Assembly: GCA_000092065.1 (NCBI GenBank)
Contig: CP000585.1
Reading direction: 5' to 3' (one strand)
Origin: Ostreococcus lucimarinus
Taxonomy: Eukaryota
DNA length: 64,000 bases
Both the position numbers and the translations under genes were made by a program. Under the pieces are notes generated by a model. The model ran no database searches, was not told the origin of the DNA, and saw only the letters and a list, made by a program, of their open reading frames with translations. Within the stretch, counting starts at the first letter, position 1, and the number at the start of each line of letters is the position of its first letter. Below are positions 1 through 47,209 of this stretch, piece by piece.

Positions 1-200
1 CCCTAAACCCTAAACCCTAAACCCTAAACCCTAAACCCTAAACCCTAAACCCTAAACCCTAAACCCTAAACCCTAAACCCTAAACCCTAAACCCTAAACC
101 CTAAACCCTAAACCCTAAACCCTAAACCCTAAACCCTAAACCCTAAACCCTAAACCCTAAACCCTAAACCCTAAACCCTAAACCCTAAACCCTAAACCCT
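1..200. repeat. Telomeric repeat array (CCCTAAA)n, about 28 units, C-rich strand of TTTAGGG; chromosome terminus
   Basis: Perfect heptamer CCCTAAA tandem from base 1 to ~200, then unique sequence; plant/green-algal type telomere unit. Confidence 0.95.
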
Positions 201-43795: not shown

Positions 43796-45418
43796 ATGTC
43801 GCTCGAGCGCGAGCGCTTGCTCGATCGCGCGACGTCGAACGCGGCCGCGTCGTCGCGCGATGACAGACGAACGCGCGCTGTTCGTCTCATCGCCACCGCT
43901 TCGTGCGTCGGCGTCGCGACGTACGCGCTCGCGCGCGCCAGCGGGATGATGTTCGCACCGTCGCTCGGTAACACCCAACGCGATTCGCGCTTCGGCGCAT
44001 CGTCCATCGACGCTACCGAGCGAACGGTGCGAGAGTATAAGGACGAATTGTCAATCCTCTCGTGGTCGCACGATCGCGGATTCGAGACGCACAGAGGATC
44101 GTGGAGGCAGGAGGCGCGAAGCGCCGACGCGAACGAGACGCCGGACGCGCCGGCGAAGGACGAGCGCGACGTGTCGAATCGTCAACGAGGGGCGGCAACG
44201 CTGATGGCGCAAACGATCGCAAAGTACATGCCTGGTCGATTATCGGAGACGTCGGCGCCGTTCGAGTTGTTGTACTCGACGTGGGACATGCCGTCGACGC
44301 CGTGCTTGGACGCCGAGTACGCGCAGAAGTTGTGCGAGTTTGATCGATGGGTACCTATATTTAACTTTGGGAGCTCGTTCAAGGATCAAACCGTGCTGCC
44401 GACAATGGTGCCAGCCACGCTCGGCGCGCTTCGTAGTTGTTTCATCGAGGGTTTGAATCCGCATTTAGGCTTTAGCGCGGACGACGAGCCACAGTGCGAC
44501 TTTTTACGCTTCCCGACGACAAAGTATTCCGAGCAAGGAAAGTGCGACGCCAAGCTCGCTCAGTGTCGGTATCACGGATTGTTTTCGCTCAATGCCGTGG
44601 ATGATAAGTCGATGTACGAGTGGGATAATCTCAAACCGCAGGTGGAATGGCGCGGGAGCGACTATTCGTTTCTCGCGCCCCGGGTACCGGGGCACAAGCC
44701 TGACGCGAATGAGTTTTTGAGCGAAATCGCGTCTTCAGCCAATGTTTCGCAGGCCTTACACGATATGGCGTTTTCCACCGATATTGGACCACGTCTCAGG
44801 GCGGTACTGTTTTCAAAGTTGTACCCCGAGCTCATCGACGCCAAGTTTTTCAACTGGAAAAATCAGTCGAGCGCGCGCGACAAGATGGCCGCCGAACTCG
44901 GTATTGACGCCACGGAACGCTTAACTGAAGAGGCGCTGGGCAAATACAAGTATCATCTCGACCTCGGCGGTGGTGGAGGGACGACGTGGAGCGGACTGAT
45001 TCCCAAACTCACCATGCCGGGCGTGCTGTTGCACCACGAGACGTCGATGAAGGATTCGTACTTTGACACTCTGAAGCCGTGGGTGCACTACGTGCCCGTC
45101 GCAGAAGACCTACACGACGTTTTTGAGAAGATTTCTTGGTGCGAAACGCACCCCGAGGAAGCACGAAATATCAGCGCCAACGCCAACGACTGGGTTCGCG
45201 ACTTCCGAGGCTTGAAATCGCTGCTTCGTCACAACTATCAAGCCCTGGCGATTCCCTTGGCGAAAACGCTCGATCCCTCTGGCGAGACGCTGCTAGACTT
45301 TGAAGCCGCGCACGTGGCCGCGCGCGCCGAGCGCCTGGCCGCGCGCGCCGCAAAACTCGCCATCAAAGCGTCCAGAGACGCCGCCAAAGCCGCGAAGGCC
45401 ACCAACGTTTCCGATTAA
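43796..45418 (+). CDS. Glycosyltransferase family 90 (CAP10/POGLUT-like, DUF821) type II membrane protein, tandem paralog A
   Basis: N-terminal signal-anchor LIATASCVGVATYALA; FFNWKNQSSARDK, LDLGGGGGTTWSGL, PWVHYVPV, DWVRDF motifs of the CAP10 domain. Confidence 0.7.
   Translation: MSLERERLLDRATSNAAASSRDDRRTRAVRLIATASCVGVATYALARASGMMFAPSLGNTQRDSRFGASSIDATERTVREYKDELSILSWSHDRGFETHRGSWRQEARSADANETPDAPAKDERDVSNRQRGAATLMAQTIAKYMPGRLSETSAPFELLYSTWDMPSTPCLDAEYAQKLCEFDRWVPIFNFGSSFKDQTVLPTMVPATLGALRSCFIEGLNPHLGFSADDEPQCDFLRFPTTKYSEQGKCDAKLAQCRYHGLFSLNAVDDKSMYEWDNLKPQVEWRGSDYSFLAPRVPGHKPDANEFLSEIASSANVSQALHDMAFSTDIGPRLRAVLFSKLYPELIDAKFFNWKNQSSARDKMAAELGIDATERLTEEALGKYKYHLDLGGGGGTTWSGLIPKLTMPGVLLHHETSMKDSYFDTLKPWVHYVPVAEDLHDVFEKISWCETHPEEARNISANANDWVRDFRGLKSLLRHNYQALAIPLAKTLDPSGETLLDFEAAHVAARAERLAARAAKLAIKASRDAAKAAKATNVSD
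44824..45117. repeat. 294-bp segment 100% identical to 46570-46863 (gene-conversion/duplication tract within GT90 paralogs); a further 39-bp identity lies at 45170-45208 = 46916-46954
   Basis: Base-by-base identity from ccccgagctcatcgacgcc to gaagacctacacga in both copies. Confidence 0.9.
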
Positions 45419-45529
45419 CCCCCGTTCCGCGCTGTATCAACAGTATCAACACCATCCGTCCACCAGCCGCGCGACGCTCCGTTTTCAAGCCTCCGCCATC
45501 GATCGCTCGACGCGCCACACGCGCGCGCG

Positions 45530-47209
45530 ATGCTCGGTCGCGCGCGCGATGACGTCGCCGAGCGCGCGGCACTCCTCGACGTCCCCGACGCCCCGTCGTC
45601 GTCGCGCGTCGCCGACGTCGACGTCGACGTCGACCGACGCGCGCGCGCGGGACACCAACACCCAAGCGCTTCGCCCGTGTTTCGCTCGCGAGTGCTCGGG
45701 TTCGCGTGCGCGTTCATCCTCGTCGCGTGCGCGTCGCGCGTGGGAAACGTTCCCCTGAGACTGCGACCGCCGATCGAGAAGCGCACGGCGCGCACGGTGA
45801 AAGAGTACGGACACGAGGGGGAGTTGCACTTGCTGCGCTGGACGTCGGCGGGTGGATTCGAAGCCGTCGAGTTGGGTCAGTCGACGGATGGCGTCAAGCA
45901 GCGCGCGGTGGAGGCGGTGAAGGTGATGATTGAAACGATAAAGAGGTATTACCCGCATCGGCTCGAGGATGGGCGGAATCCGTTCGAGTTGCTTTTCGAA
46001 GTATCGGACAAGCCGTCGACGCATTGCGTGTCCGCGCAGGCGAAGTGCGCGACGAGAGCGTGGGCACCGATATATGCGTTCGGTAGCGTGCCGAAAAACG
46101 TCGAGCACGTGTTACCGACGATGATTCACGCGCCCTTGGTTCCGCTCGCGTCTTGTTACACTGAGAACATCGCGACGTACAACGTGTCCATGAGTGGGCT
46201 TGACGCTGAGACGACGTCGTGCCCGTTTCTGAATTACCCGACGAAAAAGTATAGCGAGTTGGCCAAGTGTGATCCGGACGGCGATGTGAGCGGACAAGCT
46301 GCGTGTACGCCATACGCCCACGGATTATTTTCGCTCGACGCCGTGGAGGACAAGTCGTTGTACGAATGGAACTCGTTGGTTAACAAAGTCTTTTGGAGAG
46401 GGAGCGATTACGCGTTCTTGACGCCGTCGTACCCGGATTTTGCCTCGACGTCCGAAAACTTTTTGCCATGGTTGATGGAAGAGGCGAACAAAATGAAAGC
46501 GATGAAGATGTTGTTGCGAAATAGTGACGTCGGTCCGCGCTTTAGGGCGGTTCTGATGTCGAAGTTGCACCCCGAGCTCATCGACGCCAAGTTTTTCAAC
46601 TGGAAAAATCAGTCGAGCGCGCGCGACAAGATGGCCGCCGAACTCGGTATTGACGCCACGGAACGCTTAACTGAAGAGGCGCTGGGCAAATACAAGTATC
46701 ATCTCGACCTCGGCGGTGGTGGAGGGACGACGTGGAGCGGACTGATTCCCAAACTCACCATGCCGGGCGTGCTGTTGCACCACGAGACGTCGATGAAGGA
46801 TTCGTACTTTGACACTCTGAAGCCGTGGGTGCACTACGTGCCCGTCGCAGAAGACCTACACGATCTTGCTGAACGCGTGCGATGGCTCGAAACCCATCCG
46901 ACCGCGGCGCAGCGCATCAGCGCCAACGCCAACGACTGGGTTCGCGACTTCCGACGCCTGCGATCGCTCTTGGCGTACAACTATCGCCTTCTCGCAGTTC
47001 CGCTGTCGCTCTCCCTCGACGCCAAGCCGTTACCGTTATTTGCACCCTCCGCGAGCGTCCAAGCGACGAAATCCGAAGCCGAAGCCATCGACGCTGACCT
47101 CGCGTCGCCGCAACATCGCGCCGCCGTCGCCGCCGCCGGCGCGTCTCGCCGCCGTCGCGCGTCGGCTCGCCCCGCGGCGCGCGACACCCCCCGCGCGCCG
47201 TCGCTCTAG
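45530..47209 (+). CDS. Glycosyltransferase family 90 (CAP10/POGLUT-like) type II membrane protein, tandem paralog B
   Basis: Signal-anchor VLGFACAFILVACA; same CAP10 motifs as paralog A; divergent N-terminal and C-terminal regions flank the identical core. Confidence 0.7.
   Translation: MLGRARDDVAERAALLDVPDAPSSSRVADVDVDVDRRARAGHQHPSASPVFRSRVLGFACAFILVACASRVGNVPLRLRPPIEKRTARTVKEYGHEGELHLLRWTSAGGFEAVELGQSTDGVKQRAVEAVKVMIETIKRYYPHRLEDGRNPFELLFEVSDKPSTHCVSAQAKCATRAWAPIYAFGSVPKNVEHVLPTMIHAPLVPLASCYTENIATYNVSMSGLDAETTSCPFLNYPTKKYSELAKCDPDGDVSGQAACTPYAHGLFSLDAVEDKSLYEWNSLVNKVFWRGSDYAFLTPSYPDFASTSENFLPWLMEEANKMKAMKMLLRNSDVGPRFRAVLMSKLHPELIDAKFFNWKNQSSARDKMAAELGIDATERLTEEALGKYKYHLDLGGGGGTTWSGLIPKLTMPGVLLHHETSMKDSYFDTLKPWVHYVPVAEDLHDLAERVRWLETHPTAAQRISANANDWVRDFRRLRSLLAYNYRLLAVPLSLSLDAKPLPLFAPSASVQATKSEAEAIDADLASPQHRAAVAAAGASRRRRASARPAARDTPRAPSL
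46570..46863. repeat. Second copy of the 294-bp identical tract (see 44824-45117)
   Basis: Identical to copy 1. Confidence 0.9.

What the first reader, a model, noticed from the sequence alone, without database searches (positions are those of the whole stretch)
43796..47209. Tandem GT90 (CAP10/POGLUT-like) glycosyltransferase paralogs with a 294-bp 100% identical gene-conversion tract
Two same-strand type II membrane glycosyltransferases are separated by ~110 bp. Their N- and C-terminal thirds are clearly diverged (different residues at many positions), yet 44824-45117 and 46570-46863 are nucleotide-identical over 294 bp, and another 39 bp are identical at 45170-45208/46916-46954. Such a sharply bounded identical block inside otherwise diverged paralogs is the signature of recent ectopic gene conversion, or an assembly collapse, over the catalytic core (LDLGGGGGTTWSGL...PWVHYVPV). 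It concerns genes likely acting in O-glycosylation in the secretory pathway.
Basis: seen in the sequence. Interest (0 to 1): 0.6.

Follow-up and report, generated by a model that had tools for sequence, protein, structure and literature searches.

The report
Gene conversion between tandem glycosyltransferase genes
Two ancient, side-by-side glycosyltransferase genes of the tiny marine alga Ostreococcus lucimarinus keep overwriting each other's sugar-donor-binding segment, a real but textbook case of gene conversion and not an assembly error.

Summary
Window 44823-45117 and 46569-46863 are identical over 295 bp, one base more than reported, and 45170-45208 equals 46916-46954. Both lie inside two tandem same-strand GT90 genes, A (43796-45418) and B (45530-47209). 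Elsewhere these genes share about 45% of residues and have dS of 1.3-2.0.

The window is the telomere-proximal end of an Ostreococcus lucimarinus CCE9901 chromosome. Eight independent environmental assemblies carry the same two genes and the same 295-bp tract. The single tract difference between CCE9901 and those contigs occurs at the same position in both copies.

A sister species (about 8% divergent) has its own exact tract of 149-179 bp. All 10 core differences between the two species are shared by both paralogs. Two more distant species show older homogenisation of the same core.

The evidence therefore supports recurrent interlocus gene conversion. It rules out assembly collapse, a recent duplication and nucleotide-level constraint. 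In O. lucimarinus the 5' 116 bp were copied from B into A.

The tract covers the UDP-sugar-binding part of the C-terminal domain. The putative catalytic base lies outside it.

This is a well-supported instance of a well-known process, of modest interest. Hybrid A/B gene models in short-read metagenomes are probably repeat-induced misassemblies.

The parts
43796..45418 (+). GT90 paralog A (540 aa). It is identical from Met51 onward to the shorter RefSeq model XP_001417652.1 of O. lucimarinus CCE9901.
   Evidence: ORF; Pfam PF05686, E 3.5e-12; cluster member P0111.
45530..47209 (+). GT90 paralog B (559 aa).
   Evidence: ORF; Pfam PF05686, E 1.2e-17. AlphaFold model has pLDDT 80.7, and its best PDB fold matches are POGLUT2, POGLUT1 and Rumi.
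44823..45117 (+). Conversion tract, copy in gene A (295 bp, 100% identical to 46569-46863).
   Evidence: The same tract is present in 8 independent environmental contigs.
46569..46863 (+). Conversion tract, copy in gene B.
44823..44938 (+). Lineage-specific 5' extension of the tract (B counterpart 46569-46684). Here gene A carries B-type sequence.
   Evidence: The p-distance from the S1 tract is 0.147 to sister-species B and 0.265 to sister-species A. Sister A versus sister B is 0.30. Alignment.
44939..45117 (+). Old core tract (B counterpart 46685-46863). It is also 100% identical between A and B in the sister species, over 44939-45111 or 44939-45117 depending on haplotype. It encodes KYKYHLDLGGGGGTTWSG...PWVHYVPVAEDLHD.
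   Evidence: All 10 differences between the species are shared by both paralogs.
44874..44874 (+). Strain-specific substitution: C in CCE9901 and A in all 8 environmental contigs (Glu to Ala). It is mirrored at 46620 in gene B.
   Evidence: In proteins, only P0111 has Ala; 30 environmental A, B and hybrid models have Glu.
46620..46620 (+). The same substitution in gene B (44874 + 1746).
45170..45208 (+). Second identical block (39 bp, equal to 46916-46954), encoding ISANANDWVRDFR. Probably the remnant of a separate or patchy older conversion.
   Evidence: The block is also identical between S1 and sister-species B, and differs by one base in sister-species A.
46916..46954 (+). Second identical block, copy in gene B.
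45118..45169 (+). Diverged spacer between the two identical blocks (50% nucleotide identity between A and B). It marks the sharp 3' boundary, which is shared with the sister species.
   Evidence: seg4.
43877..43933 (+). Predicted signal-anchor or transmembrane segment of A (residues 28-46).
   Evidence: Kyte-Doolittle maximum 1.56.
45686..45739 (+). Predicted signal-anchor or transmembrane helix of B (residues 53-70).
   Evidence: Kyte-Doolittle maximum 1.85; helix 53-70 in the AlphaFold model.
45419..45529 (.). A-B intergenic spacer (111 bp). It is 122 bp in all 8 environmental contigs because of an 11-bp indel at 45464.

Best explanation
Genes A and B are ancient tandem duplicates encoding type II membrane GT90 (POGLUT/CAP10-like) glycosyltransferases, in Ostreococcus lucimarinus CCE9901. 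Their most conserved segment is the part of the C-terminal Rossmann-like domain that binds the UDP-sugar. That segment is repeatedly homogenised by non-allelic (interlocus) gene conversion.

Proposed mechanism (inferred):
1. Strong protein constraint keeps enough nucleotide similarity in this segment for homologous repair of a break in one copy to use the neighbouring copy, 1.75 kb away, as template.
2. Each conversion restores perfect identity, which makes the next conversion more likely.
3. Tracts end where similarity collapses to about 50%. This explains the sharp 3' edge at 45117/45118, which the sister species shares.

The 295-bp tract of O. lucimarinus is compound. It joins an old core (44939-45117), also homogenised in the sister species, to a 116-bp 5' extension (44823-44938) copied from B into A after the two species split.

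Shown here:
- the identity and its statistical significance
- its presence in independent assemblies
- orthology-type trees in the flanks against species-type clustering in the tract
- fixed and strain-level substitutions shared by both copies
- the direction of the extension

Inferred, not shown:
- the break-repair mechanism
- whether the events are meiotic or mitotic
- whether tract limits are set by heteroduplex rejection or by selection
- the enzymatic function
For: 1. Significance: 91 of 91 same-codon positions in the tract against 65 of 132 outside it (P about 1e-28). The longest run in 10,000 shuffles was 32 nt against 295 observed.

2. Not an artefact:
- Eight independent metagenome and JGI contigs of 53-835 kb carry photolyase-A-B-DnaJ with the same 295-bp exact tract.
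- The protein index lists gene A in 189 collection blocks.
- Copy-specific flanks and copy-specific SNPs are resolved in these assemblies.

3. Old duplication: the flanks give A-B dS of 1.3-2.0 and dN of about 0.7. In the flanks A groups with A and B with B across four species sharing the same synteny.

4. Concerted evolution:
- In the core 44939-45111, A-B dS is 0 in both S1 and its sister S2, while S1-S2 dS is 0.27, about the same as the flank value of 0.25 for gene A.
- All 10 S1/S2 differences are present in both paralogs.
- Outgroups polarise 45073 and 45103 (and probably 44953) as derived in S1 and 45029 as derived in S2. Homogenisation therefore happened independently in both lineages.

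5. Ongoing within species:
- The only tract difference between CCE9901 and the 8 environmental haplotypes (about 0.17% divergent overall) is 44874 C/A, mirrored at 46620. It lies 51 bp from unique flank sequence.
- In S2 the tract length is polymorphic: 173, 173, 179 and 149 bp. One haplotype has a B-only SNP and another a shifted 3' edge.

6. Older events: core A-B dS is 0.39 in S3 and 0.22 in S4, against 0.9-1.5 between the two species clades.

7. Direction of the extension: the S1 tract over 44823-44938 lies at 0.147 from S2_B and 0.265 from S2_A.
Against: - No reads were available, so read-level confirmation in CCE9901 itself is lacking.
- That the reference was assembled from long Sanger reads and finished is my recollection of Palenik et al. 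2007. The paper is not held in the library.
- The S2 contigs carry frameshifts (L010, L011). They may therefore contain sequencing errors, and the copy-specific SNPs that define the polymorphic tract lengths could be errors.
- The B-to-A direction rests on a single sister species, because the outgroups are saturated in that segment.
- At 44940 and 44944 S1 carries the A-type state and S2 the B-type state. Direction is therefore mixed along the tract.
- GC3 is only slightly higher in the tract (0.74-0.82) than elsewhere (0.66-0.73). The data give no clear sign of GC-biased conversion.
Confidence: 0.9

Rival explanations
1. Assembly artefact. The identical block arose because reads from two diverged copies were collapsed or consensus-polished, or because a single gene was falsely duplicated.
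For: A 295-bp exact repeat does confuse short-read assemblers at this locus. Hybrid single-gene contigs (A 5' joined to B 3'; L016-L021) exist. So does a 1747-nt contig that is a circular permutation of the 1757-bp repeat period (L026). A scaffold also traverses the loop twice (L027).
Against: - The signature of collapse seen in those contigs is one hybrid gene, not two genes with distinct flanks.
- Eight independent assemblies, including 835-kb and 111-kb contigs, give two copies with the same tract.
- The sister species has two copies with a shorter tract of its own.
- Ten fixed differences between the species are shared by both copies, which no assembler artefact would produce in two species.
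- The CCE9901-specific SNP lies 51 bp from unique flank sequence, within reach of single reads.
Confidence: 0.02
2. Nucleotide-level functional constraint. The tract would harbour an RNA or DNA element, such as a structured RNA, a small-RNA target or a regulatory site, that keeps both copies identical by purifying selection without any sequence exchange.
For: The block is sharply bounded and lies in the most conserved part of the protein.
Against: - Synonymous sites in the core diverge between species at the normal rate: S1-S2 dS is 0.27 against 0.25 in the flanks of gene A. They are nevertheless identical within each genome.
- Selection on an element would conserve it across species as well.
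- The tract RNA folds no better than shuffled sequence (z = +1.06; 176 of 200 shuffles fold at least as well).
Confidence: 0.02
3. Recent whole-gene duplication followed by very rapid divergence of the N- and C-terminal parts, with the identical block being the part that has not yet diverged.
For: The genes are tandem, same-strand and close together. B does evolve fast at the protein level (S1-S2 flank dN 0.100 against dS 0.112).
Against: - Both paralogs exist at the same syntenic position in four species.
- Flank trees and distances separate all A genes from all B genes.
- Flank dS between A and B is 1.3-2.0. The duplication is therefore far older than the tract.
Confidence: 0.01
4. Conversion is real, but the tract limits and its persistence are set by natural selection and not passively by sequence similarity. 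Both enzymes would need the same donor-binding module, while conversion of the acceptor-specific flanks would be deleterious.
For: - The same module is homogenised in at least four species.
- The 3' edge is the same in S1 and S2.
- The S1 extension ran through sequence that is about 30% diverged between A and B in the sister species. Similarity alone therefore does not strictly stop tracts.
- The flanks differ strongly in rate between A and B.
Against: - No test of selection was possible.
- The edges coincide with the collapse of nucleotide identity to about 50% (seg4). Mismatch-dependent rejection of heteroduplex predicts exactly that.
- Tract lengths differ between species and between haplotypes, as expected for neutral mutation-conversion balance.
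Confidence: 0.25

Closest known systems
Interlocus (non-allelic, ectopic) gene conversion with concerted evolution of tandem duplicates. Examples: vertebrate globin genes, Caenorhabditis paralogs (PMC3966223), fungal ribosomal-protein gene pairs (PMC6993855).
   Same: - The paralogs are more alike within a genome than orthologs are between species, but only inside a bounded tract.
- The flanks keep the orthology signal.
- The tract lies in the most conserved coding segment.
- Species-specific substitutions are shared by both copies.
- The genes are tandem, same-strand and less than 2 kb apart.
   Different: Nothing differs in kind. Three particular features stand out:
- The organism is a haploid picoeukaryote in which sex has never been observed directly.
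- The paralogs are very old (flank dS 1.3-2.0).
- Homogenisation of the same roughly 170-bp module recurs in four species.
Animal protein O-glucosyltransferases POGLUT1/Rumi and POGLUT2 (CAZy GT90; PDB 5L0R, 5F84, 9W47).
   Same: - Pfam GT90 domain.
- Sequence hits with E from 6e-7 to 7e-12, depending on paralog and target.
- GT-B fold with Foldseek E of about 1e-12 to 5e-13 over about 430 columns.
- Conserved KYKY...PWVHY(I/V)P segment, and an arginine aligned with POGLUT1 Arg218.
   Different: - Only about 15% identity in the structural alignment.
- An N-terminal membrane anchor instead of a soluble ER protein.
- The C termini (…TNVSD in A, …RAPSL in B) are not KDEL-like.
- A glycine-rich LGGGGGTTWSG turn replaces the FRGVAASFR sugar-binding turn.
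- Acceptor and donor substrates are unknown.
Cryptococcus CAP10/Cxt1-type GT90 proteins (from my own knowledge of the family; not tested here).
   Same: Same CAZy/Pfam family. Type II membrane topology is typical of this group.
   Different: No direct comparison was made. Ostreococcus has no capsule or cell wall, so the product must differ.

Membership tests
Interlocus gene conversion / concerted evolution | An identical or near-identical tract between paralogs that is significantly longer than expected from the background divergence. | tested here: met
   A run of 295 nt against a maximum of 32 in 10,000 shuffles. Same codon at 91 of 91 positions in the tract against 65 of 132 outside it.
Interlocus gene conversion / concerted evolution | Inside the tract the paralogs cluster by species. 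In the flanks they cluster by paralog type. | tested here: met
   Segment distance matrices, dS values and neighbour-joining trees.
Interlocus gene conversion / concerted evolution | Lineage-specific substitutions are present in both copies. | tested here: met
   All 10 S1/S2 core differences are shared by A and B, with derived states in both lineages. The strain-level SNP at 44874 is mirrored at 46620.
Interlocus gene conversion / concerted evolution | The pattern is reproducible in independent sequence data and is not an assembly artefact. | tested here: met
   Eight independent contigs of S1 and four of S2. Raw reads were not available.
Interlocus gene conversion / concerted evolution | Direct observation of a conversion event, for example in mutation-accumulation lines, crosses or long-read haplotypes. 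| not testable with these tools
   No read data or experimental lines were available.
GT90 (Pfam PF05686, CAZy GT90) | Match to the family profile above the curated threshold. | tested here: met
   A scores 46.4 bits and B 64.3 bits against a cut-off of 24. The match covers only profile positions of about 174-316 out of 396.
GT90 (Pfam PF05686, CAZy GT90) | GT-B fold most similar to solved GT90 structures. | tested here: met
   AlphaFold model of B has pLDDT 80.7. The top Foldseek PDB hits are 9w47, 5l0r, 5l0t and 5f84, with E from 5e-13 to 1e-11 and TM-score (target-normalised) of 0.48-0.61.
GT90 (Pfam PF05686, CAZy GT90) | Conserved donor-binding residues, equivalent to POGLUT1 Arg218, the 272-276 turn, Phe278 and Arg279. 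| tested here: inconclusive
   Invariant Arg337 (B numbering, in GPRFRAV) aligns with Arg218. The turn aligns with LGGGGGTTWSG, but the residues differ and Arg279 aligns to Leu in the HMMER alignment.
GT90 (Pfam PF05686, CAZy GT90) | Catalytic base in the N-terminal domain, equivalent to POGLUT1 Asp133. | tested here: inconclusive
   The sequence alignment to POGLUT1 does not reach that region. Asp160 (B numbering) is invariant across 37 homologs and is a candidate. No residue-level superposition was made.
POGLUT1-type ER protein O-glucosyltransferase | A soluble ER-lumen enzyme with a C-terminal KDEL-like retention signal. This definition comes from my knowledge of POGLUT1, whose signal is KTEL. 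| tested here: not met
   A ends in ...ATNVSD and B in ...PRAPSL. Both instead have an N-terminal hydrophobic anchor.
POGLUT1-type ER protein O-glucosyltransferase | Transfers Glc or Xyl to serine in the C-X-S-X-P-C motif of EGF repeats. | not testable with these tools
   This would need biochemistry.

The most novel reading that the evidence does not exclude
The 295-bp identical tract may also act as a substrate for unequal crossing-over in wild populations. On this reading, the hybrid genes found in many ocean metagenome assemblies are real segregating deletion and duplication alleles that create new glycosyltransferase combinations. These hybrids are A-N-terminus/B-C-terminus as the single gene between photolyase and DnaJ, and the reciprocal B-N-terminus/A-C-terminus. 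Recurrent homogenisation of the donor-binding module over four species would then be maintained by selection. If so, the locus would be a natural reporter of recombination, and hence of cryptic sex, in Ostreococcus. It could also be a source of cell-surface glycan variation.
Probability: 0.15. Interest if true: 0.5.

Novelty: new member of a known kind. Interest (0 to 1): 0.3.

Why it matters
The finding affects annotation and phylogeny. Trees or dS estimates that include the tract will badly misdate this duplication, and the tract breaks short-read assemblies into hybrid gene models.

It also gives a clean, population-level example of ongoing non-allelic gene conversion in a marine picoalga whose sexual cycle has never been seen. 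The locus is covered by many ocean metagenome assemblies: the index lists gene A in 189 collection blocks. It could therefore be used to estimate conversion rates relative to mutation rates in nature.

It does not reveal a new mechanism.

Tried and rejected
1. Exact look-up of the two window ORFs found nothing. The reason is that CCE9901 carries a private Glu-to-Ala change and its RefSeq model is shorter. The homolog search solved this.

2. Structured-RNA idea: the tract RNA gave z = +1.06, so this was rejected.

3. GC-biased conversion: GC3 is only slightly higher in the tract, and the derived substitutions are not GC-biased. No claim is made.

4. Hybrid single-gene contigs as real deletion alleles:
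- Haplotype comparison of their flanks showed at least two backgrounds and no diagnostic linked SNPs.
- All are from short-read assemblies with k of 127-141, or from SPAdes.
- Reciprocal and loop contigs also exist.
I judged these probable misassemblies, but the question is not decided.

5. Dating the duplication with a more distant species: L023 has a single A-like gene at the syntenic site. In the neighbour-joining flank tree the B clade branches outside A plus that gene. This could reflect loss of B or long-branch attraction, so it stays unresolved.

6. The O. lucimarinus genome paper (PMC1863510) is not held. The Sanger and finished status of the reference is therefore from memory.

7. Literature searches for 'gene conversion' with Ostreococcus and for GT90 with Ostreococcus found only GC-biased-conversion and unrelated papers. 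None described this locus.
Full report
**Observation**

Window 44823-45117 is identical to 46569-46863. Positions 45170-45208 are identical to 46916-46954 (also repeat families D1, D2 and D4).

The blocks lie in two + strand ORFs: A at 43796-45418 (540 aa) and B at 45530-47209 (559 aa), 111 bp apart. Both match Pfam Glyco_transf_90 above the gathering threshold. BLASTP gives 54% identity overall, but most of the long identical stretch is the tract itself.

Outside the tract, codons for identical residues are the same in only 65 of 132 cases. Inside it they are the same in 91 of 91, giving P of about 1e-28. Shuffling the mismatch positions 10,000 times never gave a run longer than 32 nt.

**Source**

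A 490-aa member of the gene A protein cluster is XP_001417652.1 of Ostreococcus lucimarinus CCE9901, on an 847,696-bp record. It is identical to window ORF A from Met51 onward, including a private Ala in the tract.

The window begins with (CCCTAAA)n. It is therefore a chromosome end, and the gene pair lies about 44-47 kb from the telomere.

**Not an assembly artefact**

Gene A is indexed in 189 blocks of public assemblies. The eight loci read were TARA, other ENA and JGI contigs of 53-835 kb. All carry photolyase, A, B and DnaJ, and all have an exact 295-bp tract with the same end-points.

These contigs differ from the window by about 20 substitutions in 11.6 kb. Several of those differences are copy-specific and correctly resolved.

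The only tract difference is C in the window against A in all eight contigs, at 44874 and again at 46620, which is 44874 + 1746. The site is 51 bp from unique flank sequence, within reach of a single read. Every environmental A, B or hybrid protein examined has Glu at this position. Only CCE9901 has Ala, and it has Ala in both copies. A change that arose in one copy has therefore been copied into the other within a lineage only about 0.17% diverged from the rest of the population.

**Comparative evidence**

The same synteny with both paralogs is present in three further species:
- S2 (L009-L012), a sister species with about 8% nucleotide divergence.
- S3 (L013-L015) and S4 (L022), two more distant species. 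They are about 40% divergent from S1 and about 9% from each other.

In the flanks the distances follow paralog type. A-B p-distance is 0.44-0.65, dS is 1.3-2.0 and dN is about 0.7. The S1-S2 orthologs differ by about 0.08. The duplication therefore long predates these species.

In the core 44939-45111 the picture reverses:
- A-B dS is 0 in both S1 and S2.
- S1-S2 dS is 0.27, about the same as the flank value of 0.25 for gene A.
- All ten differences between the species are present in both paralogs.
- Outgroup states show that 45073 and 45103 (probably also 44953) are derived in S1 and that 45029 is derived in S2.

Homogenisation therefore occurred independently in both lineages after they split.

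In S3 and S4 the core A-B dS is 0.39 and 0.22, against 0.9-1.5 between the two species clades. S4 has a 65-nt exact run. These values indicate older conversions of the same module.

Within S2 the exact tract is 173, 173, 179 and 149 bp in four contigs. One haplotype has a B-only SNP and another a shifted 3' edge. This fits a mutation-conversion balance. The caveat is that these contigs contain frameshifts and may carry sequencing errors.

**Anatomy of the O. lucimarinus tract**

The tract is compound. The core (44939-45117) is shared with S2 and has the same 3' limit. S2 haplotype L011 ends exactly at 45117. The other three S2 haplotypes have one extra difference at 45112.

The 5' 116 bp (44823-44938) are identical between A and B only in S1. 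There the S1 sequence lies at 0.147 from S2_B and 0.265 from S2_A, and S2_A versus S2_B is 0.30. Gene A of O. lucimarinus was therefore overwritten by B-type sequence.

The S2_A to S2_B distance of 0.30 is below the flank baseline of about 0.47. This hints at an even earlier conversion in the common ancestor of S1 and S2.

At 44940 and 44944, S1 has the A-type state and S2 the B-type state. The direction of conversion has therefore not been uniform along the tract.

The 39-bp block is shared by S1 and S2. It is separated from the main tract by 52 bp at 50% identity. It is probably the remnant of a separate or patchy older event.

**Rejected alternatives**

- Nucleotide-level constraint is rejected. 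Synonymous sites of the core diverge normally between species, and the tract RNA folds no better than shuffled sequence (z = +1.06).
- A recent duplication is rejected by the orthology of the flanks.
- Exon shuffling is not applicable, because the ORFs are continuous and the tract starts inside a codon.

**What the genes are**

The AlphaFold model of B has pLDDT 80.7. It shows a disordered N-terminal tail, one helix at residues 53-70 and a globular domain. Its best PDB fold matches are POGLUT2, POGLUT1 and Rumi, with E from 5e-13 to 1e-11. Other GT-B enzymes follow. Sequence searches of the PDB give the same three proteins. Hydropathy analysis finds one N-terminal anchor in each protein. Both proteins are therefore type II membrane GT90 glycosyltransferases.

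I mapped the residues described for POGLUT1 (PMC5543122) through the HMMER alignment:
- The tract covers the segment aligned to the sugar-binding 272-276 turn, Phe278 and Arg279. In Ostreococcus this segment reads LGGGGGTTWSGLIPK. The tract also covers the PWVHYVP strand.
- Arg218 aligns to the invariant Arg of GPR(L/F)RAV, just 5' of the tract.
- The catalytic base Asp133 lies in the N-terminal domain, far outside the tract.
- Invariant Asp160 (B numbering) is a candidate equivalent of Asp133.

'Catalytic core' is therefore only partly accurate, and 'donor-binding module' is a better description.

Unlike POGLUT1, these proteins have a membrane anchor and no KDEL-like C terminus (the POGLUT1 signal is from my own knowledge). 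I therefore file them in GT90 but not as POGLUT1-type enzymes. Their substrates are unknown, and a role in luminal glycosylation is an inference.

**Mechanism**

The best-supported explanation is recurrent interlocus gene conversion between tandem paralogs 1.75 kb apart. It would be seeded in the segment where protein constraint keeps the DNA similar, and it would reinforce itself once identity is restored.

Tract ends coincide with the collapse of similarity. This fits mismatch-dependent rejection of heteroduplex DNA. Selection against converting the diverged, presumably acceptor-specific, parts cannot be excluded. The S1 extension did cross sequence that is about 30% diverged in the sister species.

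Whether the events are meiotic or mitotic cannot be determined from these data.

**Side observations**

Short-read metagenome assemblies contain three kinds of aberrant models at this locus:
- A-5'/B-3' hybrid genes, present as the only gene between photolyase and DnaJ (L016-L021).
- Reciprocal B-5'/A-3' hybrids.
- A 1747-nt contig that is a circular permutation of the repeat period, and a scaffold that goes round the loop twice before joining unrelated sequence.

These are what mis-traversal of a de Bruijn graph at a 295-bp repeat would produce. They are also what unequal crossing-over would produce. Flank haplotypes do not discriminate between the two. I consider misassembly more likely.

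**Novelty and verdict**

Interlocus gene conversion and concerted evolution of tandem duplicates are textbook processes (for example PMC3966223, PMC6993855). I found no description of this locus, nor of interlocus conversion in Ostreococcus.

The finding is a new, unusually well-documented member of a known kind. It is useful for annotation, for phylogeny and as a possible population marker of recombination. It is not surprising to a specialist. I score interest at 0.3.

Noticed in passing
window 1-200: The window starts with about 28 copies of CCCTAAA, the plant-type telomere repeat. It is therefore a chromosome end, and the GT90 pair lies about 44-47 kb from the telomere.
   Followed up: no
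L016-L021 (hybrid gene at 5001-6668 in L016, L017, L020 and L021; 3396-5063 in L018; 2694-4361 in L019); L026 1-1747; L027 178-3906: Short-read metagenome assemblies give aberrant models at this locus. Some have a hybrid A-5'/B-3' gene as the only gene between photolyase and DnaJ. Others have the reciprocal B-5'/A-3' hybrid. L026 is a contig that circularly permutes the 1757-bp repeat period. L027 is a scaffold that traverses the loop twice and then joins unrelated sequence. These are probably repeat-induced misassemblies, but real deletion or duplication alleles from unequal crossing-over are not excluded.
   Followed up: partly
window 43796-43945 and 45530-45577: The RefSeq model XP_001417652.1 starts at Met51 of ORF A. 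It therefore omits the predicted membrane anchor and a conserved N-terminal E-R-x-x-L-[LI] motif (ERERLL in A, ERAALL in B; consensus 'ERxxLL' in 37 homologs). The motif resembles an acidic dileucine sorting signal. The longer ORF is conserved in the sister species.
   Followed up: partly
window 45530-47209 versus L009 6769-8463: Outside the tract, paralog B evolves much faster at the protein level than A between the sister species. B has dN 0.100 and dS 0.112, while A has dN 0.037 and dS 0.250. This suggests relaxed or diversifying selection on B. Part of the signal comes from its low-complexity C-terminal tail.
   Followed up: no
window 45464 (A-B intergenic spacer) and 45418: CCE9901 lacks an 11-bp stretch (AGCCACCGCCG) that all eight environmental contigs have in the spacer. 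It also differs at the third base of gene A's stop codon.
   Followed up: no
L023 6001-7686: A more distant relative has a single, A-like GT90 gene between photolyase and DnaJ. This is either the pre-duplication state, a loss of B, or a collapsed k141 assembly. A neighbour-joining tree places the B clade outside A plus this gene.
   Followed up: partly
L010 6769-8335; L011 3222-4911: Sister-species contigs named 'contig_N' contain frameshifts that split gene B (L010) and the photolyase gene (L011). This suggests error-prone, possibly long-read, assemblies. Single-copy SNPs in these contigs should be treated with caution.
   Followed up: no
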